DNA of 64,000 bases from a virus: positions 334,373-398,372 of the IMG/VR virus record IMGVR_UViG_3300027899_000001. One strand, given 5' to 3'. The translations under genes were made by a program, and so were the position numbers. A model generated the notes under the pieces. That model saw nothing but the letters and a program-made list of their open reading frames with translations. It made no database searches and was not told where the DNA came from. This document shows, piece after piece, positions 731 through 26,549 of the stretch. Within the stretch, counting starts at the first letter, position 1. The number at the start of each line of letters is the position of its first letter.

Positions 731-739
731 ATTTAAATT

Positions 740-1592: not shown

Positions 1593-1715
1593 ATGATACT
1601 GAGAAAATTTAGAAGAATAAATTGCCGCGCCATTGCGGCTATTTCCCCTTATTATTATTTGGCGGGGAAATTCAGAATCGAACCGATGTAATTCTTACAG
1701 TTACTACAGTATTTG

Positions 1716-2176: not shown

Positions 2177-2190
2177 TAACATTTAATTTA

Positions 2191-2233: not shown

Positions 2234-2238
2234 ATCAA

Positions 2239-2838: not shown

Positions 2839-2853
2839 TTTTAATTTATATAT

Positions 2854-3063
2854 TCAATTTAAACCTATAGCAGTGAAACCTATTAGATAAGTATTATACA
2901 CTTTAAATATATGATATTCTTTTTTAACAGCTTGATATTGAGCATATGCTTCAAGAGATATAAATTCATTAATAGTTACTTTAGCCTGATCAAAACAATA
3001 TAACAATACATGATGCTGTCCAAGAGCTGCTGCATAAGTTGCAAAAATTTCTTTCTTTTTCAT
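2854..3063 (-). CDS. hypothetical small protein; the start is probably the internal Met (MKKKEIF), giving an ATGA overlap with the upstream gene
   Basis: The track ORF 2854..3129 overlaps 3060..3440 by 70 nt; using the internal ATG gives the 4-nt overlap seen elsewhere in this operon. Confidence 0.4.
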   Translation of the reverse strand: MKKKEIFATYAAALGQHHVLLYCFDQAKVTINEFISLEAYAQYQAVKKEYHIFKVYNTYLIGFTAIGLN

Positions 3064-3440
3064 AATAAATCTATCATTTCTTGAGTTAGTGTTCCTTGTA
3101 ATAATGTACAATTTGCAGGAGACCCCCAATATTCAATTTTATCTACTTCATAAAATCCTATTCTTTTGAACATTGAAGCTAATTTTTTAGTTATAGAAGC
3201 TGCTTGTAATAAAGTTTCAGGAGGAAAATAAGAAAGTAACTGTTTTAACATTAATTTAAATTTTCCAGTTCCTCTATATTCTTTAAAAACTATACTTCCA
3301 TTAAGAATAACCAAACCATTTGGATATTCTTTATTTATAATATAAAAATAGTCTATATTACCATATTGTGTTTCAAATATATGTGGCGTGAAGATCACCT
3401 CGTTATCATCGAGTGATTCTCTGACTACTTTAGTATCCAT
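3060..3440 (-). CDS. GNAT-family N-acetyltransferase (small)
   Basis: Motif-A-like segment VFKEYRGTGKFKLMLKQLL (R-x-x-G-x-G); about 126 aa. Confidence 0.45.
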   Translation of the reverse strand: MDTKVVRESLDDNEVIFTPHIFETQYGNIDYFYIINKEYPNGLVILNGSIVFKEYRGTGKFKLMLKQLLSYFPPETLLQAASITKKLASMFKRIGFYEVDKIEYWGSPANCTLLQGTLTQEMIDLL

Positions 3441-3475
3441 CTTATATGGTTATATTAAAATTTATTTATGTTCTT

Positions 3476-3521
3476 AGAGAGTAAATATAATAAAATTTTT
3501 TGATATAAAAAAATATTTTAT
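3476..3521 (-). promoter_or_regulatory. conserved promoter-like motif, copy 2
   Basis: gagagtaaatataataaaattttttgatataaaaaaatatttt, about 40 nt upstream of the ATG at 3440. Confidence 0.5.
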
Positions 3522-3530
3522 CAATTATTT

Positions 3531-3731
3531 TTATTCTTCTTTTATATAAGCGTTTTTTACTTTAACGTTTTTCTTTACAGCATTTATAAACTGCCATGGA
3601 TTTTCAATTCCATAAATTTCTTTTCTATAATTATTATCATATATTATGACTACACAATATGTAACAGGTTTAAGAGGCACATACCCATTAAAAAAGGATT
3701 TTGGATTATATGATTTAAAAAAATCACTCAT
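3531..3731 (-). CDS. hypothetical protein
   Basis: 66 aa ORF, ATGA-overlapped with the downstream gene. Confidence 0.4.
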   Translation of the reverse strand: MSDFFKSYNPKSFFNGYVPLKPVTYCVVIIYDNNYRKEIYGIENPWQFINAVKKNVKVKNAYIKEE

Positions 3732-4069
3732 TTATGTACTTTAAATCCTTTATCTTTTAGTAGTGCTTGTATACCAGATCTATACCAACTAAACGCAGTT
3801 TGAGGATTACCTTTAACTGTAATATATTTTGTAATAAAATCTCCTATTTTTTGATCATATTTATGAGGAAACCAGTTATCAGCAGATCTTATTATATCTT
3901 CAGGAATTTCACGTGTTTCTAAGATTTGATGTAAATGATCTACTATCCATTTATCTAATTCTAACCAAGTATTAAAATCGCGATGTACATAAAGTCCAAT
4001 TCCCATATCTTCTATAGGATCCGATTCTTCTTTAAATACTTCATTTATATTTTCTCTAACTAATTTCAT
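3728..4069 (-). CDS. EKF/DMGIG-leader family protein
   Basis: N-terminus MKLVRENINEVFKEESDPIEDMGIG. Confidence 0.7.
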   Translation of the reverse strand: MKLVRENINEVFKEESDPIEDMGIGLYVHRDFNTWLELDKWIVDHLHQILETREIPEDIIRSADNWFPHKYDQKIGDFITKYITVKGNPQTAFSWYRSGIQALLKDKGFKVHK

Positions 4070-4890
4070 TCGTAAAAAGGCATTTTAACTTTACAAATCT
4101 TTCTAATTTTCGCTTCAGTAATTCCATAATGCATAGACATACAAACAGTTCCATCTATTCTTTTTGGAAATCCTTTTAATGATCTTATATCGTTATCTGA
4201 TGCATTAAAATCTTCTTTTACATATTCAGGAAATCCTATGCATGATTGTATAGTTCCTGGAACACAAAAATTTCCATACACATGGTGAAATTTAATATAT
4301 TCAGGAAGTTTTTTATATTTTGGATAAGTATTTCTAACACAATATAAATTTACTTGACCTTGTACTGTAATGCTTAAATCTTTATTTATAGTATAATCAA
4401 TAATATTCATTTCTTTAAGCCAATCTTTAATCTTTTTAATGATTCCTATACCCATGTCTTGAATAGGATCAGTATCTTCAGCAAATTTTTCATTAACTGA
4501 TTCATTTATTTTTAATACATCAAAATATTCGTCCCAAACTTCTATAGGGGCAGATCCATATGTATAATAATATCCTCCCGAATCTATATACCTTCTTGCT
4601 GTTATAGCGTTCTGCACATTATCTCCAAAATTAATTATTACTAAACTTAAAATATTTTTTTCTTTGTTTACTTCTTTAACTATACTAGTATTGCCTTTAC
4701 GAATTCTTGCGGTGACCTTTTCAATATTTTCGTCAAAAATAATATCATTGTTTTTTTGATATAAATCTTGTTTAACTATAATTATATCTCCTTTCTTTAT
4801 TCTCGTAAATTTAGATCCAATACCTAAATCCCATATGGGATCAGTTCCTTGTTCAAATTTTTCATTTATATGTTCTTTTACTATTTTCAT
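4066..4890 (-). CDS. EKF/DMGIG-leader family protein with two tandem modules
   Basis: N-terminus MKIVKEHINEKFEQGTDPIWDLGIG and a second internal copy VLKINESVNEKFAEDTDPIQDMGIG near residue 127; ATGA overlap with 3728..4069. Confidence 0.7.
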   Translation of the reverse strand: MKIVKEHINEKFEQGTDPIWDLGIGSKFTRIKKGDIIIVKQDLYQKNNDIIFDENIEKVTARIRKGNTSIVKEVNKEKNILSLVIINFGDNVQNAITARRYIDSGGYYYTYGSAPIEVWDEYFDVLKINESVNEKFAEDTDPIQDMGIGIIKKIKDWLKEMNIIDYTINKDLSITVQGQVNLYCVRNTYPKYKKLPEYIKFHHVYGNFCVPGTIQSCIGFPEYVKEDFNASDNDIRSLKGFPKRIDGTVCMSMHYGITEAKIRKICKVKMPFYE

Positions 4891-4914
4891 ATATTCTATT
4901 TATCTAACAAAACA

Positions 4915-4943
4915 AAAGGCCAAGATTATAAAACCTTGGCCTT
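4915..4943 (-). terminator. hairpin GGCCAAG..CTTGGCC followed by a T-run on the minus strand
   Basis: ggccaagattataaaaccttggcc; in minus-strand sense it is followed by TTTTGTTTTGTT and lies just upstream of the start of 4066..4890. Confidence 0.4.
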
Positions 4944-4949
4944 TCAATA

Positions 4950-5560
4950 TCGTCTGAGAAAAATTAGGAAGCGTGTTTTTATAAGTTGTCTCTTATGCTC
5001 TAACCTACTTATCAATCTGTCCTGTACGTGATTAAAAGACGCCTAAGACACCGCACCTTCGGGAATTACGGCCCTTTCGGGAAAATTGATGTTCAGAATC
5101 AAGAGCGCTGTCATAGTTTGAATTTATCTAGGTTGCCGAAATCCATCAGCTGGGTTTTAACTATGTTGCCATAGAAAAAAGGTTTCGAAGTACCGCTTGA
5201 CCTTACTACAGATGTTGTTTAAAATATAACTGAGAATTGTTGTTTTGTGCGTTTTAAGGAATTATCTTTCCGAAAATCGTTGCGGTGATTTTCAATACCG
5301 TGCTGTGTTGTGTAGGCCGAAGCCGCAAACCTTGAGCGTTATTTAACTGATTTAATTGGCATTGCTGCCGATCAATAGTATGACTCTTTCGAGCCAGAAG
5401 TTGCCGAGGCAACGTTTTGTTGGTTTCGAAGTATCACAAAAACTTCACTACAGTTTTATTATTAAAAATTTTAAAGAACTTTTATATACTATATATGGAT
5501 TTAAAAAGTATTAGTTTTATAACTTAATGCATTTATTTCATTAATATATAAAATAAAAGT
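4950..5560. other. GC-rich (about 45-50%) non-coding island with stable tetraloop hairpins; candidate structured RNA or intron/mobile-element remnant
   Basis: No ORF of 60 aa or more; CTTCGG and CTTTCGG tetraloop hairpins; two copies of the GTTTCGAAGTA..CTTACTACAG repeat (about 5181-5210 and 5419-5448); composition contrasts with the flanks. Confidence 0.4.
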
Positions 5561-5570
5561 AGTAAGTTTT

Positions 5571-6146
5571 ATGATTAAAGAAGAAAAACATCATTATGTA
5601 TATTTAACTACTAATCTTATCAATGGTAAACAATATATTGGTGATAGAACATGTAAATGTAATCCTGAAAATGATAAGTATTTAGGAAGTGGCAGACCAT
5701 ATTTTCAAAATGCTATTAAAGAATATGGAAAAAATAATTTTAGCAAACAAATACTTGAATGTTTTAATACAAGAGAAGAAGCTTTTAATGCCCAAGAAAA
5801 ATATATTATACAATATAATACGCTTATTCCTAATGGATATAATATAAGTCCTAAAGGTGGCCATAATGTTAAAGAATGTTGGAGCAAAGAATCTAAAGAA
5901 AAATGCAGTAACACTAAAAAAGGAAAAATTGGATATTGGAAAAATAAAAAATTATCAGAAGAACATATTAAACATTTAAAAGAAAATCATAAAGGAATGT
6001 TAGGAAAATATCATTCAGATGATTCTAAATTACAACTTAGTAATTCAATGAAAATCAAAAATAACGGAAAAGAAACAGAAGAACATAAACAAAAAATAAA
6101 ATTAAGTATGCAAAATTATTGGGCAAAAAAGAAATTAGTGCATTAA
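5571..6146 (+). CDS. GIY-YIG homing endonuclease (Seg/I-TevI-like)
   Basis: N-terminus HYVYLTTNLINGKQYIGD matches GIY-YIG; the basic C-terminal repeats (GKIGYWKNKKLSEEHIKHLKENHKG) resemble NUMOD DNA-binding modules; it is on the opposite strand to its neighbours. Confidence 0.8.
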   Translation: MIKEEKHHYVYLTTNLINGKQYIGDRTCKCNPENDKYLGSGRPYFQNAIKEYGKNNFSKQILECFNTREEAFNAQEKYIIQYNTLIPNGYNISPKGGHNVKECWSKESKEKCSNTKKGKIGYWKNKKLSEEHIKHLKENHKGMLGKYHSDDSKLQLSNSMKIKNNGKETEEHKQKIKLSMQNYWAKKKLVH

Positions 6147-6364: not shown

Positions 6365-7579
6365 TTATTTTATATTAAGTTGATATTTACAAAATTCTAT
6401 CATTTTTTCATCTCCTGTATGTTTTCCTTCTGAATCAGACAATTTAATACAAGGTACCCATTCATCGTCAGGATCAGGTTTTGCTGCAATTAGTTTAATA
6501 ACCATATTAAGTGGGTTAACTCCAACATCATTAGATAAATTTGTGCCTATTCCCATTGCGCATTTAATTTCTTTATTACATGATTTTGTTAATTCAATTG
6601 CAAGATCAGGATTAAGATTATCTGAAAAAATTATAGTTTTATCATTGGGGTCAATTCCCATACTTTGATAATGTTTAATAACTTTTTCTGCAAAATGAAA
6701 TGGATTTCCACTATCATGTCTTACACCATCAAAAAGCTTTGAGAATTTTTTTCCAAATGATTTAAAGAATGATTCTGTTGTAAATGTATCTGTAAGAGCA
6801 ATTCCAAGATCACCTTGATAAACATTTGACCAGTTTTCAAGAGCTAAAAAATTTGCTTGTTTAAATCCATATTTTGCAGCATGAAACATAAACCATTCAT
6901 GTGCATGAGTTCCTATTGGAGTAAGATTAAACATATGAGCAAAGTGTACATTAGAAGTTCCATTAAAATTATCTCTCATACTAAATGCTAAATCTTCTAC
7001 AACTTCTTTTTGATTTTCATATGAATATCTTCTACGAGTTCCAAATTCAGAAATCTTAACTCCATGATTATTAAATAATGCAGCTTTTTTTAGATTATTT
7101 TGTTCTCTTTCTACTCTTGAATTTATTTTTTCTCCCGTCATTTTAAAATACAATTCAGATATAAGAGCAAGAAGTGGAACTTCCCAAAGAATTGTACGAT
7201 ACCAGTAGCCTTCTACAGTTACTTGAAGTTCACTTCCATTTTGTATAACTCCAACTTCTGAAGGATTATATCTATATCCTGCCAAAAAATCAAAATACGC
7301 AGGATCGATATATTTACATTTAGTTTCAAAGAAGTGTTTTTCTGCAGTCAAAAGTTTAAGAGAAGACATATGAGAAATTTGTAATCTTAGTTCTTCTGCA
7401 AATCCTTCTGGAAAATTTACTTTTGAACGAACTATTAATGCATATTTAACTTTTGCTCTTGGAAAAAGTTTTAACACTGCATTCATCATACTAAATTTAT
7501 AAAGATCGTTATCGAGTATTGATGTAATTATAGGTTCCATTTTATATTTTTTTAGCATGAAAATAAGTGACTCCATCAA
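6365..7579 (-). CDS. pncB: nicotinate phosphoribosyltransferase
   Basis: N-terminus TSILDNDLYKFSMMNAV and GTHAHEW are characteristic of PncB; about 404 aa. Confidence 0.85.
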   Translation of the reverse strand: MMESLIFMLKKYKMEPIITSILDNDLYKFSMMNAVLKLFPRAKVKYALIVRSKVNFPEGFAEELRLQISHMSSLKLLTAEKHFFETKCKYIDPAYFDFLAGYRYNPSEVGVIQNGSELQVTVEGYWYRTILWEVPLLALISELYFKMTGEKINSRVEREQNNLKKAALFNNHGVKISEFGTRRRYSYENQKEVVEDLAFSMRDNFNGTSNVHFAHMFNLTPIGTHAHEWFMFHAAKYGFKQANFLALENWSNVYQGDLGIALTDTFTTESFFKSFGKKFSKLFDGVRHDSGNPFHFAEKVIKHYQSMGIDPNDKTIIFSDNLNPDLAIELTKSCNKEIKCAMGIGTNLSNDVGVNPLNMVIKLIAAKPDPDDEWVPCIKLSDSEGKHTGDEKMIEFCKYQLNIK

Positions 7580-9359: not shown

Positions 9360-10010
9360 TTAAATATTTCCTATAAAAGAAAGTGTAAGAGAATCTACAT
9401 AATAAACTTTAGCTTGTGTAAAAGCTTCTATAGTTTCTGACAAATCTGAATTTATTGATTTACACGCATCTTCAATAACATATGTATTAAAACCTTCCAT
9501 TGCTGCATCTATTGCAGTTTCTTTCACACAATAATCTAGAGCTAAACCACATACGTAAACTTCAACTACATTTCTTTCATTAAGAAAATCTTGAAGTTTT
9601 TTAGGAGCATCTGGATTTATTATTTTTGATCTATCAAATGCACTATAAACATGATTATTCCTTTCCATGCCTTTTTTAAAGATATAAAAATCTTTTTTGC
9701 ATTTTGATAAATTCAGATCTGGATGAAATGAAGCACCTAATGTATCTGCTACACAATGATCAGGCCAAAGAATATCTTTTTCTCCATTTTCTCTTACGTA
9801 ACTATCGTAAACAGAAGCTCCGGGATGTTGTGAGGCGAAAGCATCCATTTCTGGATCATGCCAATCTTGTGTAAATATAACTAAATCAAATCTTTCAAGG
9901 AGATCATTAACTACGGGTACAATTTTGTCTCCATCTGGTACTGCTAGTGATCCTCCAGGGCAAAAATCTCTTTGCAAATCGATCACTATTAATGCTTTTT
10001 TCTTTATCAT
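9360..10010 (-). CDS. pncA: nicotinamidase (isochorismatase family)
   Basis: VIDLQRDFCPGGSLAV matches the PncA N-terminal motif; about 216 aa. Confidence 0.8.
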   Translation of the reverse strand: MIKKKALIVIDLQRDFCPGGSLAVPDGDKIVPVVNDLLERFDLVIFTQDWHDPEMDAFASQHPGASVYDSYVRENGEKDILWPDHCVADTLGASFHPDLNLSKCKKDFYIFKKGMERNNHVYSAFDRSKIINPDAPKKLQDFLNERNVVEVYVCGLALDYCVKETAIDAAMEGFNTYVIEDACKSINSDLSETIEAFTQAKVYYVDSLTLSFIGNI

Positions 10011-10011
10011 A

Positions 10012-10170
10012 TCATCTTATAGTTTGAATTTCATATTCATCATATCCATCTCTTGATTCATCTGAATCTATACATACAATTTCTAATCCAAATGATTGTA
10101 AAGCGTCTGATATATTGTCTACAATTTCATCAGCTCTATCATCATAATCTACTCTAAATTTTGATTTCAT
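10012..10170 (-). CDS. small acidic ORF (52 aa) translationally coupled between nadE and pncA
   Basis: ATG at 10168-10170 overlaps the nadE stop (ATGA) and its own TGA overlaps the pncA ATG (ATGA); it is below the ORF-track size cutoff. Confidence 0.4.
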   Translation of the reverse strand: MKSKFRVDYDDRADEIVDNISDALQSFGLEIVCIDSDESRDGYDEYEIQTIR

Positions 10171-11102
10171 AATTCTTCCTTTTTATTTTTAACATATCTA
10201 TTGTATATACTATTTTCATTTTCTATTATATCGTGTCTATATATATTGACAGGATTATTTCTTTTGAATTGAGATTTTAAATGTCGTTGAATGACAGAGT
10301 GTTGACGCATTTTATTAATTTCATCCATATATACTGCATTAACAGTTGGTGAATGTTTTTCAATAAAGTCTAAATATTCTTTAAGTATTCTATCAACTTC
10401 TTTATAACCATCTCTAGAATTTCCTGTCCAGTCTGGCATTATTTGTCCAAGATCTCCAAGATTTGTAACTCCAAGGCCATCAGTTGCAAGTGCAGTTATC
10501 GTATTTATTATTGTACTTCCTGCTTCATAATTTCCAGCATATTCATTCATAGTTAACCATTCTGCCATATCATATACTTCTGTTTTCCAAAGATTTTGTA
10601 TCATACCATAATCACCTACATCACCATGAAGAGTCCAAAAACCAAGAAGAAATTCTGTATAATTATCAGTAGAAAGAACTATTCCACGATGATATGAAGC
10701 TAAATCATACAAATAAATCATACGCAGTCTTGCTTTAAGATTTCCATTACGTATACGACTTGATGAACCTTCAGGATTAGGCGCATGAAACAGCATATTA
10801 GATTCCATTTTGGAATACATAAAATTATATTCTTCTTCAACGCTATGCTCTAAGAATTTTGTACAAAATACTTTTCCTGTTAATTTGGCTCTTTCTAATT
10901 CTTCTGGTTGATTTGAACTTACTGGCAAACTTCTTCCTATAAGTGGAATATTTAATTCATCACAAACTGGTCTAGCAAGTGCTGCGCAAAGACAACTATC
11001 TATTCCACCTGAAATCCCTATAATAAGAGACTTTATATTATTGTTTGTAATATACAGACTTAATTCTTTTCGAATATTCGATACTGCTATTTGATAATTC
11101 AT
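10167..11102 (-). CDS. nadE: NH3-dependent NAD+ synthetase
   Basis: PP-loop GISGGIDS ATP-pyrophosphatase motif; about 311 aa. Confidence 0.8.
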   Translation of the reverse strand: MNYQIAVSNIRKELSLYITNNNIKSLIIGISGGIDSCLCAALARPVCDELNIPLIGRSLPVSSNQPEELERAKLTGKVFCTKFLEHSVEEEYNFMYSKMESNMLFHAPNPEGSSSRIRNGNLKARLRMIYLYDLASYHRGIVLSTDNYTEFLLGFWTLHGDVGDYGMIQNLWKTEVYDMAEWLTMNEYAGNYEAGSTIINTITALATDGLGVTNLGDLGQIMPDWTGNSRDGYKEVDRILKEYLDFIEKHSPTVNAVYMDEINKMRQHSVIQRHLKSQFKRNNPVNIYRHDIIENENSIYNRYVKNKKEEL

Positions 11103-11371: not shown

Positions 11372-11875
11372 TTATAAATCATTTTCTTTGTGTTTACACC
11401 AAGTTAGATATTCATCTTGATCTCTTATCCATTGTAATAATTCTGGATCAGTAACTTGTTCATGTTCTATTTTAGACCATAATTCGTTATCTCTTTCATT
11501 TTTATCATATTGATTAACGAAATATATTTTCTTAATTCCCGCTGCTATTATATTTTTCAAACATTCACTGCAAGGTTCAAGTATACAATAAAGTTCTGCT
11601 TCTTCAATAGCAATTCCATGTTTGGCTGCAAAATTAATAGCATTCATTTCAGCATGAACCTCATATTTTTTAGACCAATTATGATGGGCTTCTCTATCAG
11701 TTAGAAAATTATAATTAGGAAAATGATCACAACAATTTTCAAATCCTTTAGGTGTCCCATTTATTCCCGTGGAAATAATTCTTCTATCATGAACAATAAG
11801 AGCTCCCACTTGTCTTGAGACACATTTAGATTCTTGTCCAAGTAAATATGCTGTTTTAAGAAAGAAATGTTTCAT
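11372..11875 (-). CDS. dCMP deaminase (cytidine/deoxycytidylate deaminase zinc-binding)
   Basis: HAE...PCxxC motif (HAEMNAI...EPCSECLKNI). Confidence 0.8.
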   Translation of the reverse strand: MKHFFLKTAYLLGQESKCVSRQVGALIVHDRRIISTGINGTPKGFENCCDHFPNYNFLTDREAHHNWSKKYEVHAEMNAINFAAKHGIAIEEAELYCILEPCSECLKNIIAAGIKKIYFVNQYDKNERDNELWSKIEHEQVTDPELLQWIRDQDEYLTWCKHKENDL

Positions 11876-12123
11876 TTGAATTCTGCTTCTAAATTTCTTA
11901 AATGTTCATTAGTATATTCGTATTCTATTTTATCTTCATAATCATAAAGATATATTTTATCTTTACATACTTTTGTTATTTTACACTTAAAATTTTTCCA
12001 AGAATAACAATTATATAAATTATCTACAACTCCTGACCAATTATATTTTTTACCTTCAACTAGTTGAAAACCATCATGAGTTACAAATATCTTTTTGGGT
12101 TTTTTCTTAAATGGATTTTTCAT
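11872..12123 (-). CDS. hypothetical protein
   Basis: 83 aa ORF. Confidence 0.4.
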   Translation of the reverse strand: MKNPFKKKPKKIFVTHDGFQLVEGKKYNWSGVVDNLYNCYSWKNFKCKITKVCKDKIYLYDYEDKIEYEYTNEHLRNLEAEFK

Positions 12124-12323
12124 GGTCTTAAGCTTTTTTGTTCATTTTCTTCTCCATCGCCATCCATTAAAGTAGCAATCATGTTAATAGATTCAAGAAT
12201 AGATTGTCTTAACATTTTAATCCAAGTTTCATAATCCTCTACTTTTGTGATATTAGGACGAATTGTTACGTTTTTTAGATTTTCACAAACAGTTTTAAGC
12301 ACTTTCTTTTCTAACTTTTCCAT
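12120..12323 (-). CDS. hypothetical protein
   Basis: 67 aa ORF. Confidence 0.4.
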   Translation of the reverse strand: MEKLEKKVLKTVCENLKNVTIRPNITKVEDYETWIKMLRQSILESINMIATLMDGDGEENEQKSLRP

Positions 12324-12395
12324 ATTGTTATTTGTTTATTATAATGCTAATATATAAAAAATATGAATACGATGTGATTTTTTGTTGTTAATTTT

Positions 12396-12437
12396 TTGTT
12401 AAAAAAGCAAAAGGGAGAATTTCTTCTCCCTTTCTAT
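12396..12437 (-). terminator. rho-independent terminator downstream of rsr
   Basis: AAGGGAGAAgaaatTCTCCCTT followed by a T-run in minus-strand sense. Confidence 0.55.
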
Positions 12438-12441
12438 TCTA

Positions 12442-14145
12442 TTAGATTTCAATCTTGTTGATTTCATCTATGATTACCTGTGGGTTTATTTCAACCTGAG
12501 GAATCTTTTCGTAGATGTCTTGACCGTAGCCGTAAAGACGGAATACTCTGTTTCCACCCTTTATAGGAGCAGTTGCTGCATATCCGCATACGTTGATGAT
12601 GTATACGTATGGTGTTCCGAACTTCTTGCAGTATCCTGCATAAGAATTTTCTACATTGCTGTATCCATCCTGTTCGTCAGAGATGATAAGAATTCTATCG
12701 TACTGCTTGTTAGTTCTTTCAAACAACTTGAAGCAAGAACCGAAATCTGTACCGTGACCGCAACATCCGTTGTAGGACATGAACTTCTGCTTTAACGTAT
12801 TGATTGAATCGATTGGGTTCCAACCTACAATCTGTTCAGCAGTAGAAGCGAAATGGTATACATCTCCACCAACACCCTTTGCAAATGTTGCAGCTACAAG
12901 TGCAGCCTTGTCAGCTGGCTTCTTATTGATAGCCTTCTTAGGGTCACCATTAAGATAAATGCTGGAGTATCCACCTTTCATAGAACCTGATGTATCGAAT
13001 ACAACTGCTGTTCTACCTTCTGGAAGCAAGTTCTGAAGGTTTGGAATTGACAATTCATATGCTGTTGAAAGTGCCTTTGCAACCTTAGCCAACTGTGTTC
13101 CGTTGAATTCAAGTGTCATCACTTCAAGAGCAATGTCAATCTGGTGTGGCCATACAAGAGACTTACGGATGAATTCCTTTTCAACAAGTAAATCGCACGC
13201 CTTGTCAAGAAGAACAGTATCATTGGTCTTAAGAATGTTACGTACGTTACGAAGTAATGCAAGGTACCCAATCTTCTTAGTTTCAATAAGTTCCTTGTAG
13301 TTTTCAGTCTTAGCTTCATTAAGTTCAACAGTTGCCTGTTCCTTAGTGATAGTTCCAGCCTTAACCTTTTCAGCTACAACCTTTCCTGCTTCAGTATTCT
13401 TATCTTCAACAGTGTTGAACTGCTTAAGAACGCCAAGAACAAGAGCCTTAAGAGTTGGAAGACCAACATTACCATTTTCAGGTGCATCTAAAAGATATTC
13501 ATCCTTTTCGAACTTAGTACCCTTAACAGCCTTCAAGTATTCAGCTTCTGATACAAATACTGTTCCATTTATAGGTGTTTCATGTGGGTGCACTAAGTTA
13601 ACGATGTCAACAAGGCTTACACCACGTGACTTCATCTGGTACTTAGCTAACTGATATGCATCTGCATGTTCAATTGCATCCTTGAATCCCTTCTTAATAG
13701 CGTTTGGAATTGGTGCTTCTACACCATTCTTAGCCTGGTAACATGCAAGAATTTCTGCCATGTCATCAAGACGATAAACGATACCTCCACGATTTTCCTT
13801 ACGGTCTCTCTTAGAGAAGAATCTCTTAGCGATTTCAGAACCTGCAAGGTGAGGGATTAATTCTACTGCACCGTAATGAGTAACAGAACGCTGTCCAAAT
13901 ACTGTACGTGCATAGATAAGTGCCTTAGCTGCGAATAATGCATTCTTCTGCGCAACTCTATTGATAACTTCACGGAATCTCTTTTCACGTTCAGTTTCCT
14001 TTTCGTAATAAGTATTATCTAAACCAGTAGATAAAATACCAATTAATTCATGTTCTGGCTTCTGTGTTAAACCAGTTCCACCCTGTAAAGTTACAGTTTC
14101 CTTAACTTCTGGGTTGCTTACTCTCTTTTCATTGTACTTTGACAT
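12442..14145 (-). CDS. rsr: Ro60-like TROVE-domain protein with C-terminal vWA domain
   Basis: TROVE-like N-terminal region; vWA MIDAS motif VVFDTSGSM; GC content clearly higher than its surroundings; strong Shine-Dalgarno AAAGGAGGT 7 nt upstream of the ATG, unlike the neighbouring genes. Confidence 0.7.
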   Translation of the reverse strand: MSKYNEKRVSNPEVKETVTLQGGTGLTQKPEHELIGILSTGLDNTYYEKETEREKRFREVINRVAQKNALFAAKALIYARTVFGQRSVTHYGAVELIPHLAGSEIAKRFFSKRDRKENRGGIVYRLDDMAEILACYQAKNGVEAPIPNAIKKGFKDAIEHADAYQLAKYQMKSRGVSLVDIVNLVHPHETPINGTVFVSEAEYLKAVKGTKFEKDEYLLDAPENGNVGLPTLKALVLGVLKQFNTVEDKNTEAGKVVAEKVKAGTITKEQATVELNEAKTENYKELIETKKIGYLALLRNVRNILKTNDTVLLDKACDLLVEKEFIRKSLVWPHQIDIALEVMTLEFNGTQLAKVAKALSTAYELSIPNLQNLLPEGRTAVVFDTSGSMKGGYSSIYLNGDPKKAINKKPADKAALVAATFAKGVGGDVYHFASTAEQIVGWNPIDSINTLKQKFMSYNGCCGHGTDFGSCFKLFERTNKQYDRILIISDEQDGYSNVENSYAGYCKKFGTPYVYIINVCGYAATAPIKGGNRVFRLYGYGQDIYEKIPQVEINPQVIIDEINKIEI

Positions 14146-14189
14146 AGTGTACCTCCTTTTTTTACTATTAGTTTATACTAAAGAATTAA

Positions 14190-14420
14190 TTAACATATTA
14201 CTATAAAATGTTTTCTGTTTTCATTATCTTCACACTTAACAGGCATGAATCTTTTATCTTCATAATCTTCTCTTGCAACTTGCATCCAACCATTTTCGGT
14301 TCCTGCTGGATTGTCTCTATTTGCTACCTCAAGTATTTCTTCATCAGTAGCGTCCCATTCTGCGCAAACTTGCATATAACATATGCCTATCATCGGCTGT
14401 GAAACTATTACTCTTTCCAT
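14190..14420 (-). CDS. hypothetical acidic protein
   Basis: 76 aa ORF. Confidence 0.4.
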   Translation of the reverse strand: MERVIVSQPMIGICYMQVCAEWDATDEEILEVANRDNPAGTENGWMQVAREDYEDKRFMPVKCEDNENRKHFIVIC

Positions 14421-14439
14421 ATTAAATTTTATTAAAAAT

Positions 14440-14480
14440 AAAAAAGCCTGAGTAATTTTTTACGATTTCTCAGGCTTTGC
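14440..14480 (-). terminator. rho-independent terminator (GCCTGAG..CTCAGGC followed by TTTTTTATTTTT) about 25 nt upstream of the ATG at 14420
   Basis: aaaaaagcctgagtaattttttacgatttctcaggc; the T-run is on the minus strand. Confidence 0.5.
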
Positions 14481-14686
14481 AATATAATCATAAAGTTCAA
14501 GTTATGAGCTATGCAAATAAAAGTTGAGAAATCTGAGAAGAGTTTAAATTGAAAATTCTAATAAAGATCGTTCGATGTAACTCTTTCTCTTACTACAATC
14601 AATTATATTATTATATATAAAGTCAAAAACTCTTTGTTTTTAGACTTAGTGTTAAAATTTTGTTAAAGATTTATTTATTAAAATTA

Positions 14687-14728
14687 TAGTGTAAATATAA
14701 TAAAAATTCTTGACAGAAAAAACTTTTT
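14687..14728 (-). promoter_or_regulatory. conserved promoter-like motif, copy 4
   Basis: tagtgtaaatataataaaaattcttgacagaaaaaacttttt; it lies about 210 nt upstream of the terminator at 14440-14480. Confidence 0.45.
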
Positions 14729-14742
14729 ATGTTAAAATTTTG

Positions 14743-15336
14743 TTAAAATAATGAAATATTTTTGGTACGATGTAATAATCCATATATTATAAATGCATGA
14801 CCCATCTTTTTATTTGGATCTGTAATAACATCCATAAGAGATTTATTCATCTTAACATGATTGTATCCATCAAAATCTATCAAATAAATATCTCGTTTTT
14901 CAGTTTTATATAATTCTAAAAGTTGCTTATATGCTTCGCTTTGTAATAAAGCTCTTTTATAAATAGGAATGTAAATTTTAATTCTTGCTTGAATATATGA
15001 TAATTTTTCTCCATCCCAATAACTATATAAAGGTTTTGCATCTCTACCCATAGGATATCTGTGAGCAAAATTATCATTCCATATTTTTTCAGCCCATTCA
15101 AAATATGCTGGAGAAGGATCGCCTTTTTCATCTACAAATTCTTTATATACCTTTGATGCTTGCCAGGCGTTTTCTACATTCTTTGCATAATATCCTTTAT
15201 ACAAATGCCCGCCCGGAAGAACAAAAGGAGATAAACCTTGAGTCCAATTTCCTGAACCTGCTCTTGAAGTTGTATTAATTACTACTGCGCCCTCAGGTAT
15301 CTCATACCTTTTAGCGTATGATTCTACGTATAACAT
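14743..15336 (-). CDS. NADAR/YbiA-like (DUF1768) domain protein; candidate ADP-ribose-processing or DNA ADP-ribosyl hydrolase
   Basis: SPFVLPGGHLYKGYYAKNVENAWQASKV resembles the NADAR core (SPF...G..Y...E.A.QA.K). Confidence 0.45.
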   Translation of the reverse strand: MLYVESYAKRYEIPEGAVVINTTSRAGSGNWTQGLSPFVLPGGHLYKGYYAKNVENAWQASKVYKEFVDEKGDPSPAYFEWAEKIWNDNFAHRYPMGRDAKPLYSYWDGEKLSYIQARIKIYIPIYKRALLQSEAYKQLLELYKTEKRDIYLIDFDGYNHVKMNKSLMDVITDPNKKMGHAFIIYGLLHRTKNISLF

Positions 15337-15376
15337 AGTGTAAATATAATAAAAAATTCTGAATTGAAAATATTTA
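15337..15376 (-). promoter_or_regulatory. conserved promoter-like motif, copy 5, directly abutting the ATG
   Basis: atagtgtaaatataataaaaaattctgaattgaaaatattt; only 3-4 nt separate the motif from the ATG at 15336, which suggests a leaderless mRNA. Confidence 0.5.
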
Positions 15377-15527
15377 TGTGTTAAAATTTTGTTAAAATGA
15401 TGAAACTAAACTTTATAGTTAATATATAAATTATATAACCTTGTACTTGGGGGTTTAGTGTTTGAAAGAACATTCGAGTTGGAGAAATACCAACGAATAA
15501 ATTCTCAAATATAAAATAACATAAGGA

Positions 15528-16397
15528 ATGAAAATAAATTACTCAACTCAAAGGGTAACTGTGCCCACTGTATACGTGACCAAAGGTCGCCAAAGAGTAA
15601 AACAGTATGATAACACAATCTATCTTAAAAATGGAGACGAATTCGAAATAGAATTATTCAATCCATTACAATCTAAAGTTTTAGCGAAAATTGAACTCAA
15701 CGGAAAGTATCTTGGTGCTGGAATAGTTTTACGTCCAGGTGAAAGAATGTTTCTTGAAAGATACATCGAAGAGTCCAGAAAATTCATGTTTCAAACATAT
15801 GAAGTTGATGGTGGTGATACTAATGTTCAAGAAGCTATTAAACTTAATGGAGTATTAGAGGTTAAATTTTATAAAGAAACTGCACCTTCACAACCATATT
15901 ACAGAAGTTCTACTATAACTTACACAACCAATCCAAGTTGGACAGTAACACCTACTTATACACATTATAATACAACAATAGGATATTCTGGTGTAAAAAG
16001 TTCAAAAGGAGACATAGAAAATCCTGGTGTTGTTTTTGGTAATGCTACTACTTTATCATGTTCTGTGGATAATACAAAATCATATGTAGATAGTATGCCC
16101 ATTGGAGGTGAAGGATTAGGATTTGCGGGATGCGCTGATTTTTCAAGAGACTTTGCTCCACAAGAACAAACAATAGAAACTGGAAGAGTAGAAAAAGGTT
16201 CAAAATCAGATCAAGAATTTTCTACAGATAATACGCAATTTGATGTTTATTATAGTTGGAGAAGTGTTTGGAAAATTCTTCCAGAATCTCAAAAGCCACT
16301 TATGTCTGAAGACTTAAAAGTATTTTGTACAAATTGTGGAGCTAAAAGAAAAAAATCTTCTCATAAATTTTGCCCAAACTGTGGCAACCAATTTTAA
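15528..16397 (+). CDS. hypothetical protein with C-terminal zinc ribbon
   Basis: C-terminus CTNCGAKRKKSSHKFCPNCGNQF. Confidence 0.45.
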   Translation: MKINYSTQRVTVPTVYVTKGRQRVKQYDNTIYLKNGDEFEIELFNPLQSKVLAKIELNGKYLGAGIVLRPGERMFLERYIEESRKFMFQTYEVDGGDTNVQEAIKLNGVLEVKFYKETAPSQPYYRSSTITYTTNPSWTVTPTYTHYNTTIGYSGVKSSKGDIENPGVVFGNATTLSCSVDNTKSYVDSMPIGGEGLGFAGCADFSRDFAPQEQTIETGRVEKGSKSDQEFSTDNTQFDVYYSWRSVWKILPESQKPLMSEDLKVFCTNCGAKRKKSSHKFCPNCGNQF

Positions 16398-19457: not shown

Positions 19458-19554
19458 GTGTATAAATGTTTAGTTAATAAAAAATTTATATTTATATATA
19501 TGTTAAAAGTTTTATATTTTGATGTAAACAAAATGATATTTGATGTAAAATTTG

Positions 19555-19627
19555 TCCCTCTAGAGAGATTCGAACTCTCGACACGCGGGATTAGAAGCCG
19601 CTGGTCTGACCACTGACCTATAGAGGG
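19555..19627 (-). tRNA. tRNA with apparent CUA (amber-suppressor) anticodon; the alternative reading is Arg(UCU)
   Basis: The 73-nt canonical parse gives acceptor CCCTCTA/TAGAGGG, D-arm GGTC-AGTGGTCA-GACC, anticodon stem GCGGC/CCCGC (4 of 5 bp) with loop TTCTAAT, T-arm GAGAG-TTCGAAT-CTCTC. Reading the loop as CTTCTAA (UCU) requires dropping nt 26 and leaves a poor stem. Confidence 0.5.
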
Positions 19628-25656: not shown

Positions 25657-25731
25657 AAACTGAGAAATTCGGTTAGAGCATTTTTTCTAATTTCCAGGTT
25701 TCGAAGTATCTCTTTACCTTACTACAGTTTG

Positions 25732-25806: not shown

Positions 25807-25883
25807 ATTTAAGTTGAGAAATGTGGAGTGAGTGTCTTTTTTATTAGATTTGCATGTCTTTTACGAAGTAACTCATTTCCTTA

Positions 25884-26549
25884 CTACAACTTTATATTAA
25901 ATATTTTTTCATAATTTTGAATATCTGATAAAAATATCATTTCAATATTATTATAATTACTCAAAATATATCTCATTTTCTTTTTATCTTCTTCTTCATA
26001 TCTTCCTTTAACTTCAAAGAACTTTTTTAAATTTGGACACCAAAAATCTGGATAATATGTGTGAATTTCCCCGAATTCATTTGTCCAAGATAAACCATCA
26101 GAAAAAGGCTTTATCCAATCTTTATCTATAATATTTAAAATAACTGCGAAACGTTTTTCATAGGTTCCTTGTACTTTTATCTTTGTTCCATCAGGTTTTA
26201 TAATTTCATACCATTTACATTTTCCGCCAGTTATCCATCCTTTATTATTTATAGATATTTTTCTTTTTGTTTCTAAATCTCTTGGACCATTTTTTCTTCC
26301 TTTCAATTTAGAAGGTCTTCCTTTTTTAGTATCCCAAACTCTATTTTCAGAATGAATAGCCCAAATATGAAATTTTACGCCTCTAGGATTATCATATTCT
26401 TTTTCACATATTGGACATTTATGAAAACCATTAGGTTGTTTATAAATATTAACTTTATTTTGTCTATTACCACATTTTTCATAATGTTTCTTAAAATTTG
26501 ATAAACTTATTTCTTTATTACATTTATCACAAATTCTTTTATTTACCAT
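25884..26549 (-). CDS. zinc-finger plus PD-(D/E)XK nuclease (paralog of 740..1432)
   Basis: MVNKRICDKCNKEISLSNFKKHYEKCG.. and YYPDFWCPNLKKFFEVKG. Confidence 0.6.
   Translation of the reverse strand: MVNKRICDKCNKEISLSNFKKHYEKCGNRQNKVNIYKQPNGFHKCPICEKEYDNPRGVKFHIWAIHSENRVWDTKKGRPSKLKGRKNGPRDLETKRKISINNKGWITGGKCKWYEIIKPDGTKIKVQGTYEKRFAVILNIIDKDWIKPFSDGLSWTNEFGEIHTYYPDFWCPNLKKFFEVKGRYEEEDKKKMRYILSNYNNIEMIFLSDIQNYEKIFNIKL

What the first reader, a model, noticed from the sequence alone, without database searches (positions are those of the whole stretch)
12324..14742. GC-rich Ro60/TROVE+vWA (rsr) island with its own Shine-Dalgarno and flanking terminators; candidate Y-RNA-like locus upstream
rsr is visibly more GC-rich than everything around it. 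It is one of the few genes with a strong SD (AAAGGAGGT, contrasting with the SD-less phage genes) and is followed by a clean terminator. These features point to a recent horizontal acquisition. Ro60 proteins work with Y RNAs, and bacterial rsr loci usually carry a Y RNA gene nearby. The roughly 210-nt segment 14480-14690, bounded by a promoter-motif copy and a strong terminator, has no ORF and is a candidate small RNA, although it is AT-rich and I could not see Y-RNA-like terminal pairing.
Basis: partly seen in the sequence, partly recalled or inferred. Interest (0 to 1): 0.55.

Follow-up and report, generated by a model that had tools for sequence, protein, structure and literature searches.

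The report
Phage Ro60 gene with Y-like RNAs
A giant phage carries a Ro60 RNA-binding protein gene, tuned for heavy translation, next to a conserved small RNA; that RNA belongs to an apparently undescribed family of "clamp" RNAs that travels with Ro60 in many Bacteroidota-type phages and probably plays the role of Y RNAs.

Summary
ORF 12442-14145 (-) is a genuine Ro60 (TROVE+vWA). It is the compositional outlier of the window, the only gene with a Shine-Dalgarno site, and it is followed by a terminator.

The "recent horizontal acquisition" reading fails. The extra G+C sits only in two-fold codons (AAG 98%, CAG 94%, TTC, TAC, ATC). G+C at four-fold sites is below the genome mean. The same bias recurs in relatives of 59-83% identity, all on phage contigs. 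This points to selection for translation, not foreign DNA.

The guessed small RNA exists, at 14438-14601 (-), with its own promoter-like block and terminator. Its 5' 81 nt form a bulged "clamp": nnnnGURGUAAG-stem-UUACWUCG...stem-UUUCYCnnnn. Covariation is strong (92% paired across 82 distinct copies; 302 double changes against 75 in shuffles).

Five more copies lie in the window. One carries a YrlA-type permuted tRNA-like domain and two carry about 200-nt cargos. The clamp tracks Ro60 even where the protein is only 23-37% identical, including crAss-like phages.

It does not match Rfam Y_RNA or YrlA and lacks the canonical GNCGAA motif. Verdict: a new variant of the Ro60-Y RNA system. Ro60 binding is inferred, not shown.

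The parts
12442..14145 (-). rsr: Ro60 orthologue (TROVE/HEAT ring plus vWA domain with a DTSGS MIDAS-type motif), 567 aa. Codon usage is extreme for this genome.
   Evidence: Pfam TROVE. A profile of the family hits Thermus phage phiLo Ro60 9L5Y/9KOP at E 3.6e-23 and X. laevis and human Ro60. The AlphaFold model (pLDDT 76) matches 13 Ro60 chains over 550-600 alignment columns, E 1e-15 to 5e-10. Codon table.
14151..14159 (-). Shine-Dalgarno site AAAGGAGGT, 6 nt from the ATG. It is the only one in the window.
   Evidence: Present in about half of the relatives.
14162..14170 (-). Conserved leader element TAATAGTAA just upstream of the SD. It shares UAGUAA with the clamp's 5' motif. Function unknown.
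   Evidence: Found in 22 of 39 relatives, in some as TAGTAGTAAA. Read by eye, not tested further.
12401..12434 (-). Intrinsic terminator of rsr.
14190..14420 (-). Small ORF (76 aa, Cys-rich) between the RNA and rsr. Not a conserved partner.
   Evidence: No Pfam family. Homologues occur only on the L004 contig and in L038. Absent in L001, where the RNA abuts rsr.
14438..14601 (-). rsr-proximal Y-like RNA, about 164 nt. It consists of the clamp (14521-14601), a second hairpin (about 14476-14517) and a terminator hairpin with a U6 tract (14440-14477).
   Evidence: Conserved in L001 and L004. The full-length model R1 finds it upstream of rsr in about 40 loci at E <= 3.5e-5. R2 scores the clamp 70.4 bits, E 6e-14. 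MFE fold z = -2.2.
14603..14666 (-). Promoter-like block of the RNA: TTAACAAAATTTTAACA (14650-14666) and a conserved TTTATATATAATA with TATAAT at 14610-14615. Inferred transcription start near 14604.
   Evidence: Conserved block in alignment A1. Motif enrichment. The spacing does not fit sigma-70. Promoter activity is not tested.
1596..1712 (-). Clamp RNA with a YrlA-type permuted tRNA-like cargo (T-arm, closed acceptor-like stem, D-arm). It lies between tRNA-Gly and tRNA-Lys.
   Evidence: R2 44.3 bits, E 7e-8. The MFE fold shows the three hairpins inside the clamp, z = -3.5. No Rfam YrlA hit at E <= 1.
5227..5456 (-). Clamp RNA with a structured cargo of about 170 nt, the first of a tandem pair in an ORF-free gap.
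   Evidence: The 5' and 3' arms carry all conserved motifs and complementary P1/P2 stems. The cargo is partly conserved in L001 8845-9095. It is too long for R2 to span.
4953..5214 (-). Clamp RNA with a cargo of about 200 nt, the second of the pair. A terminator follows at about 4915-4950.
   Evidence: Similar large-cargo clamps lie just 3' of rsr in L047, L062, L068 and L089.
25811..25892 (-). Clamp RNA with a simple loop, 5 nt upstream of tRNA-Gln(CUG) in a tRNA array.
   Evidence: R2 78.7 bits, E 7e-16. Sequence.
25657..25730 (-). Clamp RNA with a simple loop, immediately 3' of the same tRNA.
   Evidence: R2 72.1 bits, E 2.5e-14. Sequence.

Best explanation
The locus is the Ro60 module of a huge phage (contig of at least 405 kb). 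It comprises a Ro60 (Rsr) gene built for very efficient translation and, 375 nt upstream on the same strand, a separately promoted and terminated small RNA that is its likely Y-RNA-type partner.

The RNA belongs to a family defined by an 81-nt 'clamp':
- a 4-6 bp terminal helix;
- an invariant G-C pair, a bulged U, a covarying R:Y pair and a second G-C pair;
- a UAA/UUU junction;
- a covarying second helix of about 8 bp;
- an invariant single-stranded UUACWUCG.

The loop of the clamp is a free cargo slot. Across the family it holds nothing, a YrlA-like permuted tRNA-like domain, a whole tRNA, or a 200-nt RNA.

Inferred mechanism, by analogy with Ro60-Y RNA particles: Ro60 docks on the clamp, and the cargo recruits or mimics tRNA-handling factors or a host nuclease such as PNPase. 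This would give the phage an RNA quality-control, decay or protection particle early in infection.

Shown here: the protein's identity, the RNA's conservation and structure, the clamp's co-occurrence with Ro60, and the translational-selection signature of the gene.

Inferred only: transcription of the RNA, Ro60 binding, and the downstream function.
For: Protein: (Pfam TROVE; sequence and fold matches to solved Ro60s including phage phiLo Ro60).

RNA conservation:
- The same RNA lies upstream of rsr in L001 and L004.
- R1 finds it in about 40 loci.
- R2 gives 113 hits at E < 1e-3, all on the rsr strand and none in Herpetosiphon-type loci.
- 55 of 62 loci have a clamp upstream of rsr, at a median distance of 494 nt.

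Structure:
- MAFFT alignment A5: 88% of cells paired against 71% in shuffles and <=52% when partners are slid; 153 double-sided changes against 45.5.
- Model-based alignment A6: 82 distinct copies, 92% paired against 68%, 302 against 75 double changes, covariation score 0.625 against 0.188. The R:Y pair is A-U in 56 copies, G-C in 26 and unpaired in none.
- An anchor-based test that does not depend on any structure-fitted alignment gives 75-80% pairing against 40-50% in shuffles.

Link to Ro60, found independently of the protein:
- An RNA-pattern scan of IMG/VR followed by R2 gave 26 loci with true clamps. Fourteen of them hold a Ro60 homologue within the stretch held, seven of those at only 30-37% identity. 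Six more are other stretches of contigs known to carry rsr.
- Only 1 of the 54 chance-pattern loci holds one.
- Clamps also flank Ro60 in LR745206.1, in csAssE-Sib and probably in crAss001.

Y-RNA-like modularity:
- The cargo in L047 2573-2648 matches the tRNA-like core of Rfam YrlA (33.8 bits, E 1e-5 in a local search).
- Window copy 1596-1712 folds into T, acceptor and D hairpins in the YrlA order.

Expression design: AAG 98% against 10%, CAG 94% against 15%, C-ending pyrimidine codons, CGT, GGT and CTT are favoured. GAA stays at 100% and four-fold GC3 is not raised. The pattern is conserved across the clade.

Precedent: Y-like RNAs lie next to phage Ro60 genes (PMC4201824). phiLo Ro60 binds two upstream Yrl RNAs and host PNPase (PMC12135203). 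The crAss001 TROVE gene is an early gene (PMC8375218).
Against: - There is no Rfam Y_RNA or YrlA match for any window copy.
- The 5' strand reads GURGUAAG. It is not the GNCGAAN0-1G / GGUCCGA motif thought to be contacted by Ro60 (PMC4201824).
- Five of the six window copies lie 7-12 kb from rsr, in tRNA/ncRNA clusters. Adjacency is therefore not exclusive.
- Six clamp-bearing IMG/VR stretches could not be tied to an rsr gene, because only part of each contig is held.
- There are no expression or binding data for this phage.
- The rsr-proximal transcript extends beyond the clamp by a hairpin and a terminator, unlike classical Y RNAs, whose own ends form the stem.
Confidence: 0.68

Rival explanations
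1. One reading: rsr is a recently acquired foreign island whose higher G+C and SD reflect a donor genome.
For: GC 0.397 against 0.281, and the only SD in the window.
Against: - Four-fold GC3 is 0.045 against a mean of 0.10. All the excess lies in two/three-fold codons.
- G/C-ending Ala, Pro, Thr and Val codons are not raised, and GAA stays at 100%.
- The bias is shared by relatives of 59-83% identity that have diverged at synonymous sites.
- Neighbouring genes (dCMP deaminase, isochorismatase/nicotinamidase-like, NAD synthase) recur around rsr in relatives.
- No close bacterial homologue was found among 185,579 species genomes.
- The flanking RNA partner is conserved along with the gene.
Confidence: 0.04
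2. The clamp is a processing or stability stem (a leader-trailer duplex for RNase III, RNase P/Z or another factor) that punctuates the phage's tRNA/ncRNA arrays. It lies near rsr only because rsr sits in RNA-gene-rich regions. Ro60 does not bind it.
For: Several copies are embedded in tRNA arrays only 0-5 nt from tRNAs. In relatives, clamps enclose whole tRNAs whose 5' end abuts UUACUUCG. rsr loci of distant relatives are crowded with tRNAs, GOLLD RNA and tmRNA.
Against: - The best conserved copies are 'empty' clamps with unconserved 8-35 nt loops. They have their own promoter-like block and terminator next to rsr, so there is nothing for a processing stem to release.
- Invariant bulge and junction nucleotides and an invariant single-stranded octamer suggest recognition by a specific protein rather than a generic dsRNA site.
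- Most tRNAs in the same arrays lack clamps.
- The clamp tracks Ro60 down to about 23-37% protein identity, in crAss-like phages as well as huge phages.
Confidence: 0.15
3. The rsr-proximal RNA acts mainly in cis, as a leader/attenuator of an ORF76-rsr operon. Terminator read-through, possibly controlled by Ro60 binding to the clamp, would set the Ro60 level. It would not be a trans-acting partner.
For: It is on the same strand and directly upstream. No promoter-like block is visible between the terminator (14440) and rsr. In L001 the terminator lies about 50 nt from the SD. A UAGUAA element resembling the clamp's 5' motif sits in the rsr leader.
Against: Other copies lie far from rsr, or downstream of it (window copies; L047, L068, crAss001). 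The distance to rsr varies from 84 to 2777 nt, with intervening ORFs. A strong terminator with a U6 tract predicts mostly short transcripts. This reading is compatible with the main explanation rather than exclusive of it.
Confidence: 0.13

Closest known systems
Bacterial and phage YrlA-type Y RNAs with Rsr/Ro60 (Chen et al. 2014, PMC4201824; Rfam RF02553)
   Same: - Small RNAs encoded next to a Ro60 orthologue on the same strand, often several per genome.
- A stem with bulges carries a variable module.
- Some members carry a permuted tRNA-like domain in the order T-arm, closed acceptor stem, D-arm (window 1596-1712; L047 2533-2675).
- They are also found in phages.
   Different: - No window copy reaches any Rfam threshold.
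- The stem sequence differs: GURGUAAG ... UUUCYC plus an invariant UUACWUCG, instead of GNCGAAN0-1G.
- Most copies have no tRNA-like domain.
- The cargo can be a complete, unpermuted tRNA or an RNA of about 200 nt.
- There are up to six or more copies per genome region, some interleaved with tRNAs.
Thermus phage phiLo Ro60 with Yrl1/Yrl2 (PMC12135203; PDB 9KOP, 9L5Y)
   Same: This is the closest solved protein by both sequence (E 3.6e-23) and fold (E 1e-15). Two Y-like RNAs lie directly upstream of the phage Ro60 gene. The proposed role is hijacking of host PNPase.
   Different: Protein identity is only about 20%. The phiLo RNAs were picked by a CGAA motif within a stem-bulge-stem, whereas the clamp family has no conserved CGAA. 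The host and phage type differ. Binding has been shown for phiLo but not here.
Deinococcus radiodurans Rsr-Y RNA-PNPase (RYPER) and metazoan Ro60-Y RNA particles
   Same: Ring-shaped Ro60 (fold match to 2NVO, 1YVP and 9NEN). The RNA partner has a bulged helix near its ends and an effector-binding module.
   Different: In metazoan Y RNAs the bulged pyrimidine is a C within GGUCCGA, and the helix is formed by the true 5' and 3' ends. Here a U is bulged, and the primary transcript of the rsr-proximal copy continues 3' of the clamp.

Membership tests
Ro60 / TROVE (Rsr) proteins | TROVE domain detectable by profile | tested here: met
   Pfam PF05731, E 4.7e-9, 36.4 bits against a cut-off of 23. The family profile hits phiLo, Xenopus and human Ro60.
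Ro60 / TROVE (Rsr) proteins | C-terminal vWA domain with a MIDAS DxSxS motif | tested here: met
   VVFDTSGSM aligns with phiLo LVDVSGSM. The C-terminal part of the model matches vWA domains (ranks 14-50).
Ro60 / TROVE (Rsr) proteins | Overall fold of solved Ro60 (HEAT-repeat ring plus vWA) | tested here: met
   The AlphaFold model (pLDDT 76, pTM 0.55) has 13 Ro60 chains as its top 13 Foldseek hits, E 1e-15 to 5e-10, TM 0.44-0.65, over 550-600 alignment columns. Ring closure itself was not inspected.
Ro60 / TROVE (Rsr) proteins | Binds Y RNA and misfolded RNA | not testable with these tools
   Needs EMSA, RIP or a structure.
Y RNA (Rfam RF00019) / YrlA (RF02553) | Covariance-model score at or above the gathering threshold | tested here: not met
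   No hit at gathering over the whole window. No hit at E <= 10 in 11800-15600 or at E <= 1 in 1-5700. In relatives there are only sub-threshold hits to the tRNA-like core (28-34 bits against 69). Caveat: the model also missed the Herpetosiphon loci at gathering.
Y RNA (Rfam RF00019) / YrlA (RF02553) | Encoded adjacent to a Ro60 gene | tested here: met
   The gap is 375 nt in the window. 55 of 62 related loci have a copy upstream of rsr, at a median of 494 nt. Co-occurrence was also found starting from the RNA side.
Y RNA (Rfam RF00019) / YrlA (RF02553) | Long bulged stem enclosing a variable loop or module | tested here: met
   Two helices with a bulged U and an internal loop, supported by covariation. 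In the rsr-proximal copy the stem closes the first 81 nt, not the transcript ends.
Y RNA (Rfam RF00019) / YrlA (RF02553) | Conserved 5'-strand Ro60 recognition motif GNCGAAN0-1G / GGUCCGA | tested here: not met
   The 5' strand is GURGUAAG, identical at 4 of 8 positions and 6 of 8 if the two N positions are counted. CGAA after UUACWUCG occurs only in some copies.
Y RNA (Rfam RF00019) / YrlA (RF02553) | tRNA-like domain (T-arm, acceptor-like stem, D-arm; YrlA subfamily) | tested here: inconclusive
   Present by fold prediction in window 1596-1712 and in relatives. Absent from the rsr-proximal copy and from the two copies in the tRNA array.
Y RNA (Rfam RF00019) / YrlA (RF02553) | Physically bound by Ro60 in vivo | not testable with these tools
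   Needs RIP-seq or EMSA.

The most novel reading that the evidence does not exclude
The clamp is a portable, non-canonical Ro60 docking module used by phages of Bacteroidota-type hosts: huge phages, crAss-like csAssE-Sib and probably the cultured crAss001. Inserting a cargo into its loop would make that RNA a Ro60 client. Such cargos include empty loops, permuted tRNA-like domains, complete tRNAs (Gln-UUG, Lys, Tyr, Gly, Pro, Leu) and RNAs of about 200 nt. On this reading these phages deploy an early, heavily translated Ro60 with a whole repertoire of Y-type RNAs, including 'clamped' tRNAs, to control, protect or mimic tRNAs during infection.
Probability: 0.45. Interest if true: 0.78.

Novelty: new variant of a known kind. 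Interest (0 to 1): 0.63.

Why it matters
Ro60-Y RNA particles are known from animals, bacteria and a few phages. Their partners have been found only with one motif and one covariance model, and their role in phage infection is unknown.

This locus shows three things:
- A large, apparently undescribed RNA family travels with divergent Ro60 genes in huge phages and in crAss-like phages of the human gut. It has a different putative recognition helix and a cargo slot that can hold whole tRNAs.
- The phage Ro60 gene has been shaped for exceptional translation. It is the only SD in the window and uses optimal-type codons in a genome that otherwise uses A/T-ending codons. That argues for an abundant, probably early, protein.
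- The idea can be tested at once in a cultured system. crAss001 on Bacteroides intestinalis has published strand-specific RNA-seq, and clamp-like repeats sit directly downstream of its early TROVE gene.

It also warns annotators that some 'tRNAs' next to phage Ro60 genes are nested inside a larger conserved RNA.

Tried and rejected
- Rfam at gathering and at permissive E-values over the window and the locus gave only tRNAs and noise.
- The 'YrlA' hit in L071 6577-6693 is an artefact of two adjacent tRNAs.
- The Herpetosiphon loci, intended as a positive control, gave long 'tRNA' hits upstream of rsr but no YrlA at gathering. Rfam negatives therefore carry limited weight.
- An alternative pairing of GUAGUAA with UUACUUC was rejected: A.A and G.A mismatches occur where R and W vary, with no covariation (alignment).
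- Sigma-70 and Bacteroides-type (-33 TTTG / -7 TAnnTTTG) promoter spacings do not fit the conserved TTTATATATAATA block (and by eye). The promoter type is left open.
- The bare DNA pattern GTAGTAAG..TTACTTCG in IMG/VR is mostly chance: 54 of 80 listed loci lack a real clamp.
- R2 cannot span cargos of more than about 150 nt. The two large window copies therefore rest on arm motifs and complementarity read by eye.
- Two regex hits, 3378-3578 (+) and 33181-33296 (-), were discarded as false positives.
- ORF76 was checked as a possible conserved partner and is not one.
- The look-up of encoding contigs has no record for the exact window protein.
- The idea that avoiding AAA and CAA makes rsr immune to anticodon nucleases is weakened by GAA staying at 100%.
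- TAG recoding, suggested by the tRNA with anticodon CUA, has no clear support in this window.
Full report
**Setting.** The window has 28.9% G+C. Almost all genes are on the minus strand, and ARAGORN tRNA genes (Rfam 18). It encodes a collagen/S74 tail-fibre-like protein and an NAD-salvage set. The Ro60 protein is identical to a metagenomic protein seen on a 405-kb contig, so this is a huge phage.

**Checking the observation.** ORF 12442-14145 (-) is a 567-aa TROVE protein.
- Its G+C is 0.397 against 0.281 +/- 0.033 for the 56 other ORFs of >=100 aa. GC3 is 0.331 against 0.133 (z = 6.6).
- AAAGGAGGT lies 6 nt from the ATG. It is the only SD core upstream of any of the 57 ORFs of >=100 aa.
- A clean terminator follows at 12409-12434, and another precedes the locus at 14440-14477.
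- The interval 14421-14742 has no ORF of >=40 aa. It carries two exact copies of TTAACAAAATTTTAACA, a motif found 17 times in the window against 4.8 expected.

**The protein.**
- A profile of 24 family members hits the Ro60 of Thermus phage phiLo (9L5Y/9KOP, E 3.6e-23), then Xenopus and human Ro60. The vWA MIDAS-type motif DTSGS aligns.
- An AlphaFold model (pLDDT 76) has 13 Ro60 chains as its top 13 PDB matches, including phiLo, D. radiodurans Rsr, Xenopus and human. These span 550-600 alignment columns at E 1e-15 to 5e-10. vWA domains follow.

It is a Ro60 orthologue.

**Why the gene is not a foreign island.** More than 1,200 metagenomic proteins are 62-83% identical.
- 74 IMG/VR phage loci encode the family, on contigs of up to 434 kb.
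- A scan of one genome for each of 185,579 bacterial and archaeal species found only five short MAG contigs (2-10 kb, probably mis-binned phage) and Herpetosiphon-type Ro at 21-22% identity.
- Neighbouring genes (dCMP deaminase, isochorismatase/nicotinamidase-like, NAD synthase) recur around rsr in relatives.

The decisive result is codon-level. Values are rsr against the other genes:

| Codon | rsr | Other genes |
|---|---|---|
| AAG | 98% | 10% |
| CAG | 94% | 15% |
| TTC | 80% | 10% |
| TAC | 67% | 8% |
| ATC | 47% | 5% |
| CGT | 57% | 13% |
| GGT | 55% | 27% |
| CTT | 61% | 30% |
| GAA | 100% | 94% |

G/C-ending four-fold codons are not raised. GC3 at four-fold sites is 0.045 against 0.10 (z = -1.2). 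At two/three-fold sites it is 0.54 against 0.10 (z = 10.8).

A gene imported from a genome richer in G+C would be enriched at all synonymous sites. This pattern is instead the signature of selection for particular codons. The same split (two-fold sites raised 2-4 fold, four-fold sites not raised) is seen in most of the 19 tested relatives of 57-83% identity. It is weak in L045 and L049, and L023 and L037 show no four-fold deficit. About half of the relatives keep an AAAGGAGG site. Relatives near 50% identity show a TTC/TAC-type bias instead.

I conclude that rsr is an old resident gene under sustained selection for efficient translation, probably from the host tRNA pool. The phage's own tRNAs mostly read A-ending codons. 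In crAss001 the TROVE gene is transcribed within 10 minutes of infection (PMC8375218). That fits an early, abundant protein, but it is evidence from another phage.

**The small RNA.** On the minus strand the ORF-free stretch reads as follows:
- the promoter-like motif (14650-14666);
- a conserved TTTATATATAATA block, with TATAAT at 14610-14615;
- about 164 nt of RNA, ending in a hairpin plus U6 tract at 14440.

The same element lies directly upstream of rsr in L001, and upstream of a small ORF plus rsr in L004. Compensatory changes are visible: GAGA/UCUC becomes GGGA/UCCC, and AG/CU becomes GG/CC. A full-length covariance model built from these three sequences (R1) finds the RNA on the rsr strand within 3 kb upstream of rsr in about 40 loci at E <= 3.5e-5. 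It is often present in tandem pairs.

The conserved core is the first 81 nt, which I call the clamp:

5' nnnn-G-U(bulge)-R-G-UAA-[5' strand of P2]-UUACWUCG-(loop/cargo)-[3' strand of P2]-nn(n)UUU-C-Y-C-n'n'n'n' 3'

**Structure tests.**
- On a MAFFT alignment of 52 simple-loop copies, the named structure has 88.2% of cells paired against 70.7% in shuffles and at most 52% when partners are slid. It shows 153 double-sided changes against 45.5 (0 of 500 shuffles reach this).
- Model R2 retrieved 113 copies at E < 1e-3 in 85 sources. All are on the rsr strand, and none is in the Herpetosiphon loci.
- On that alignment (82 distinct sequences), 92.1% of cells pair against 68.1%, with 302 double changes against 75. 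The covariation score is 0.625 against 0.188, and at most 0.164 when slid. The R:Y pair is A-U in 56 copies, G-C in 26 and unpaired in none.
- A test anchored only on the invariant motifs, so independent of any structure-fitted alignment, gives 75-80% pairing in the outer helix against 40-50% in shuffles. All four Watson-Crick pair types occur.

The structure is real.

**Family members in the window.** With filters off, R2 finds four copies, all on the minus strand:

| Coordinates | Score | Note |
|---|---|---|
| 14521-14601 | 70.4 bits | rsr-proximal copy |
| 25811-25892 | 78.7 bits | flanks tRNA-Gln(CUG) in a tRNA array at 0-5 nt |
| 25657-25730 | 72.1 bits | flanks the same tRNA at 0-5 nt |
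| 1596-1712 | 44.3 bits | lies between tRNA-Gly and tRNA-Lys |

The cargo of 1596-1712 folds into a T-arm (loop GUUCGAU), an 8-bp closed acceptor-like stem and a D-like hairpin. That is the order found in YrlA (z = -3.5).

Two further copies, 5227-5456 and 4953-5214, carry cargos of about 170-200 nt. They lie in tandem in an ORF-free gap ended by a terminator. Their arms have every conserved motif and complementary stems, and one cargo is partly conserved in L001. R2 cannot span them.

**Cargo diversity in relatives.** Clamps in related loci enclose several kinds of cargo:
- unconserved loops;
- YrlA-like permuted tRNA-like domains; L047 2573-2648 matches positions 23-87 of Rfam YrlA at 33.8 bits (E 1e-5 in a local search, below the gathering score of 69);
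- complete tRNAs that both Rfam and ARAGORN call, including Gln-UUG in L047, L050 and L062, Lys-CUU in L050, Gly in L062, and Pro and Leu in L071;
- RNAs of 200-280 nt, placed just 3' of rsr.

**Is the clamp tied to Ro60?**
- 55 of 62 loci with at least 2 kb of upstream sequence have a clamp upstream of rsr, at a median of 494 nt.
- Starting from the RNA side, a pattern scan of IMG/VR gave 80 listed loci, and R2 confirmed real clamps in 26. Fourteen of these hold a Ro60 homologue within the <=15 kb held. Seven of those are only 30-37% identical to the window protein, so they were not found through the protein. Six more are other stretches of contigs known to carry rsr.
- Only 1 of the 54 chance-pattern loci has a Ro60-like hit.

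GenBank records show the same association:
- LR745206.1 (a 635-kb phage with Ro60 at 34% identity) has a clamp about 580 nt upstream of its Ro60 (44.8 bits).
- The crAss-like phage csAssE-Sib has three tandem clamps directly upstream of its annotated 'Ro sixty-related protein'. One has a permuted tRNA-like cargo, and two enclose the annotated tRNA-Tyr and tRNA-Lys.
- crAss001 has a 900-nt ORF-free gap directly downstream of its TROVE gene Gp96. The gap holds two tandem divergent clamps (26.1 and 15.4 bits) that differ by compensatory changes in both helices. It also holds four TAGTG...TTACWTCA motifs against 0.07 expected, all on the TROVE strand. The crAss001 assignment is probable, not certain.

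**Comparison with the known.** Y RNAs next to Ro60 in bacteria and phages are established (PMC4201824), and phiLo Ro60 binds two upstream Yrl RNAs and host PNPase (PMC12135203).
- The present RNAs share with these the context, the bulged stem, the modular design and, in some members, the permuted tRNA-like domain.
- They fail two defining tests. There is no Rfam Y_RNA or YrlA match for any window copy. The 5' strand reads GURGUAAG rather than GNCGAAN0-1G or GGUCCGA.
- The Rfam consensus for the YrlA stem (acggCgaAUGCuuggGg ... cCccaaAaAcUuGucGccg, seen) places its motif across the end of the outer helix and the internal loop. GURGUAAG sits in the same place, but the sequences agree at only 4 of 8 positions.
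- I found no paper in the searchable library that links Y RNAs with huge phages or Crassvirales. That library is incomplete.

**Mechanism.**
- Shown: a Ro60 gene; a conserved, structured RNA family with its own promoter-like block and terminator; co-occurrence of the two; and a translational-selection signature on the gene.
- Inferred: Ro60 docks on the clamp. The cargo supplies tRNA mimicry, or presents a real tRNA or another RNA, to partners such as PNPase or tRNA-processing and repair enzymes. The particle acts early in infection.
- Rivals: the clamp may be a processing or stability stem unrelated to Ro60, or the proximal copy may act as a cis attenuator of rsr. The first is weakened by 'empty' clamps that stand as separate transcription units beside rsr, and by the invariant unpaired nucleotides. 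The second is compatible with the main model.

**Verdict.** The Ro60 identity and the Y-like RNA hold, and the horizontal-transfer reading is rejected. This is a new variant of the Ro60-Y RNA system with an apparently undescribed recognition module. It is directly testable in crAss001.

Noticed in passing
L004 4220-5010: A GIY-YIG ORF (226 aa, Pfam E 6.6e-5) is inserted between the SD and the start codon of rsr. The start region is duplicated (…AAGGAGGAAACATC ATGGCAAAGCATTCATGA … TTAATAGTAAA ATGGCAAAGTAC…). It looks like a homing-endonuclease insertion exactly at the rsr start, leaving rsr without its SD.
   Followed up: partly
window 19554-19627 (-): A tRNA with anticodon CUA (amber suppressor type; ARAGORN labels it Pyl). 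Stop codon use among ORFs of >=100 aa is TAA 40, TGA 12, TAG 5. Few ORFs would lengthen if TAG were read as sense, so recoding is not evident in this window.
   Followed up: partly
window 6365-7576, 9360-10010, 10167-11102 (-): An NAD salvage set (nicotinate phosphoribosyltransferase, isochorismatase/nicotinamidase-like protein, NAD synthase) lies just downstream of rsr. The isochorismatase-like and NAD synthase genes recur beside rsr in L004, and the isochorismatase-like gene in L001. It could be a counter to NAD-depleting defences.
   Followed up: no
L071 1489-1905; L059 2491-2917 and 1387-1586; L057 685-1083: In relatives of about 50% Ro60 identity, rsr sits inside tRNA arrays that also hold GOLLD RNA (277 and 239 bits), a group I intron and a tmRNA. 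Ro60 is thus embedded in a dense non-coding RNA island.
   Followed up: no
window 14162-14170 (-), and upstream of rsr in 22 of 39 relatives: A conserved TAATAGTAA (or TAGTAGTAAA) lies immediately before the SD or ATG of rsr. It shares UAGUAA with the clamp's 5' motif, and it is also three in-frame stop codons. It could be an autoregulatory Ro60 site or a translation insulator.
   Followed up: partly
window 25575-25652 (-): A tRNA-like sequence (acceptor GCCCUG/CAGGGC, T-loop GGUUCGAAUCC) with a long insert in its 5' half. It lies right after clamp copy 25657-25730 and is called by neither Rfam nor ARAGORN.
   Followed up: no
window 14680-14746 (-) compared with 15337-15395 (-): The block 'TTAACAAAATTTTAACA … TTTTTATTATATTTACACT' precedes the ATG of the DUF6939 gene with no leader. 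It is duplicated downstream of that gene, but is followed there by ATA instead of ATG. A similar TTATTATATTTACAT-ATG precedes ORF 38968-39438. This suggests leaderless mRNAs from a phage-specific promoter.
   Followed up: no
L216 (crAss001 MH675552) 12440-12600 (-): A tRNA-like sequence (GGAGGGAUAGCUCAGUUGGUAGAGC … GGUUCAAGUCCAAUUCCCUCCA) carries clamp arms in reversed order (…AAUGUUCC … GGUGUAGAAUAGAGUUACUUCA…) where the anticodon arm should be. The clamp may therefore also occur in a permuted topology, capped at its outer helix and inserted into a tRNA.
   Followed up: no
L215 (csAssE-Sib OR575929.1) 4456-4730: The annotated tRNA-Tyr and tRNA-Lys next to the Ro gene are each nested inside a clamp (R2 35.7 and 27.4 bits). 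Current annotation therefore misses the larger RNA units.
   Followed up: partly
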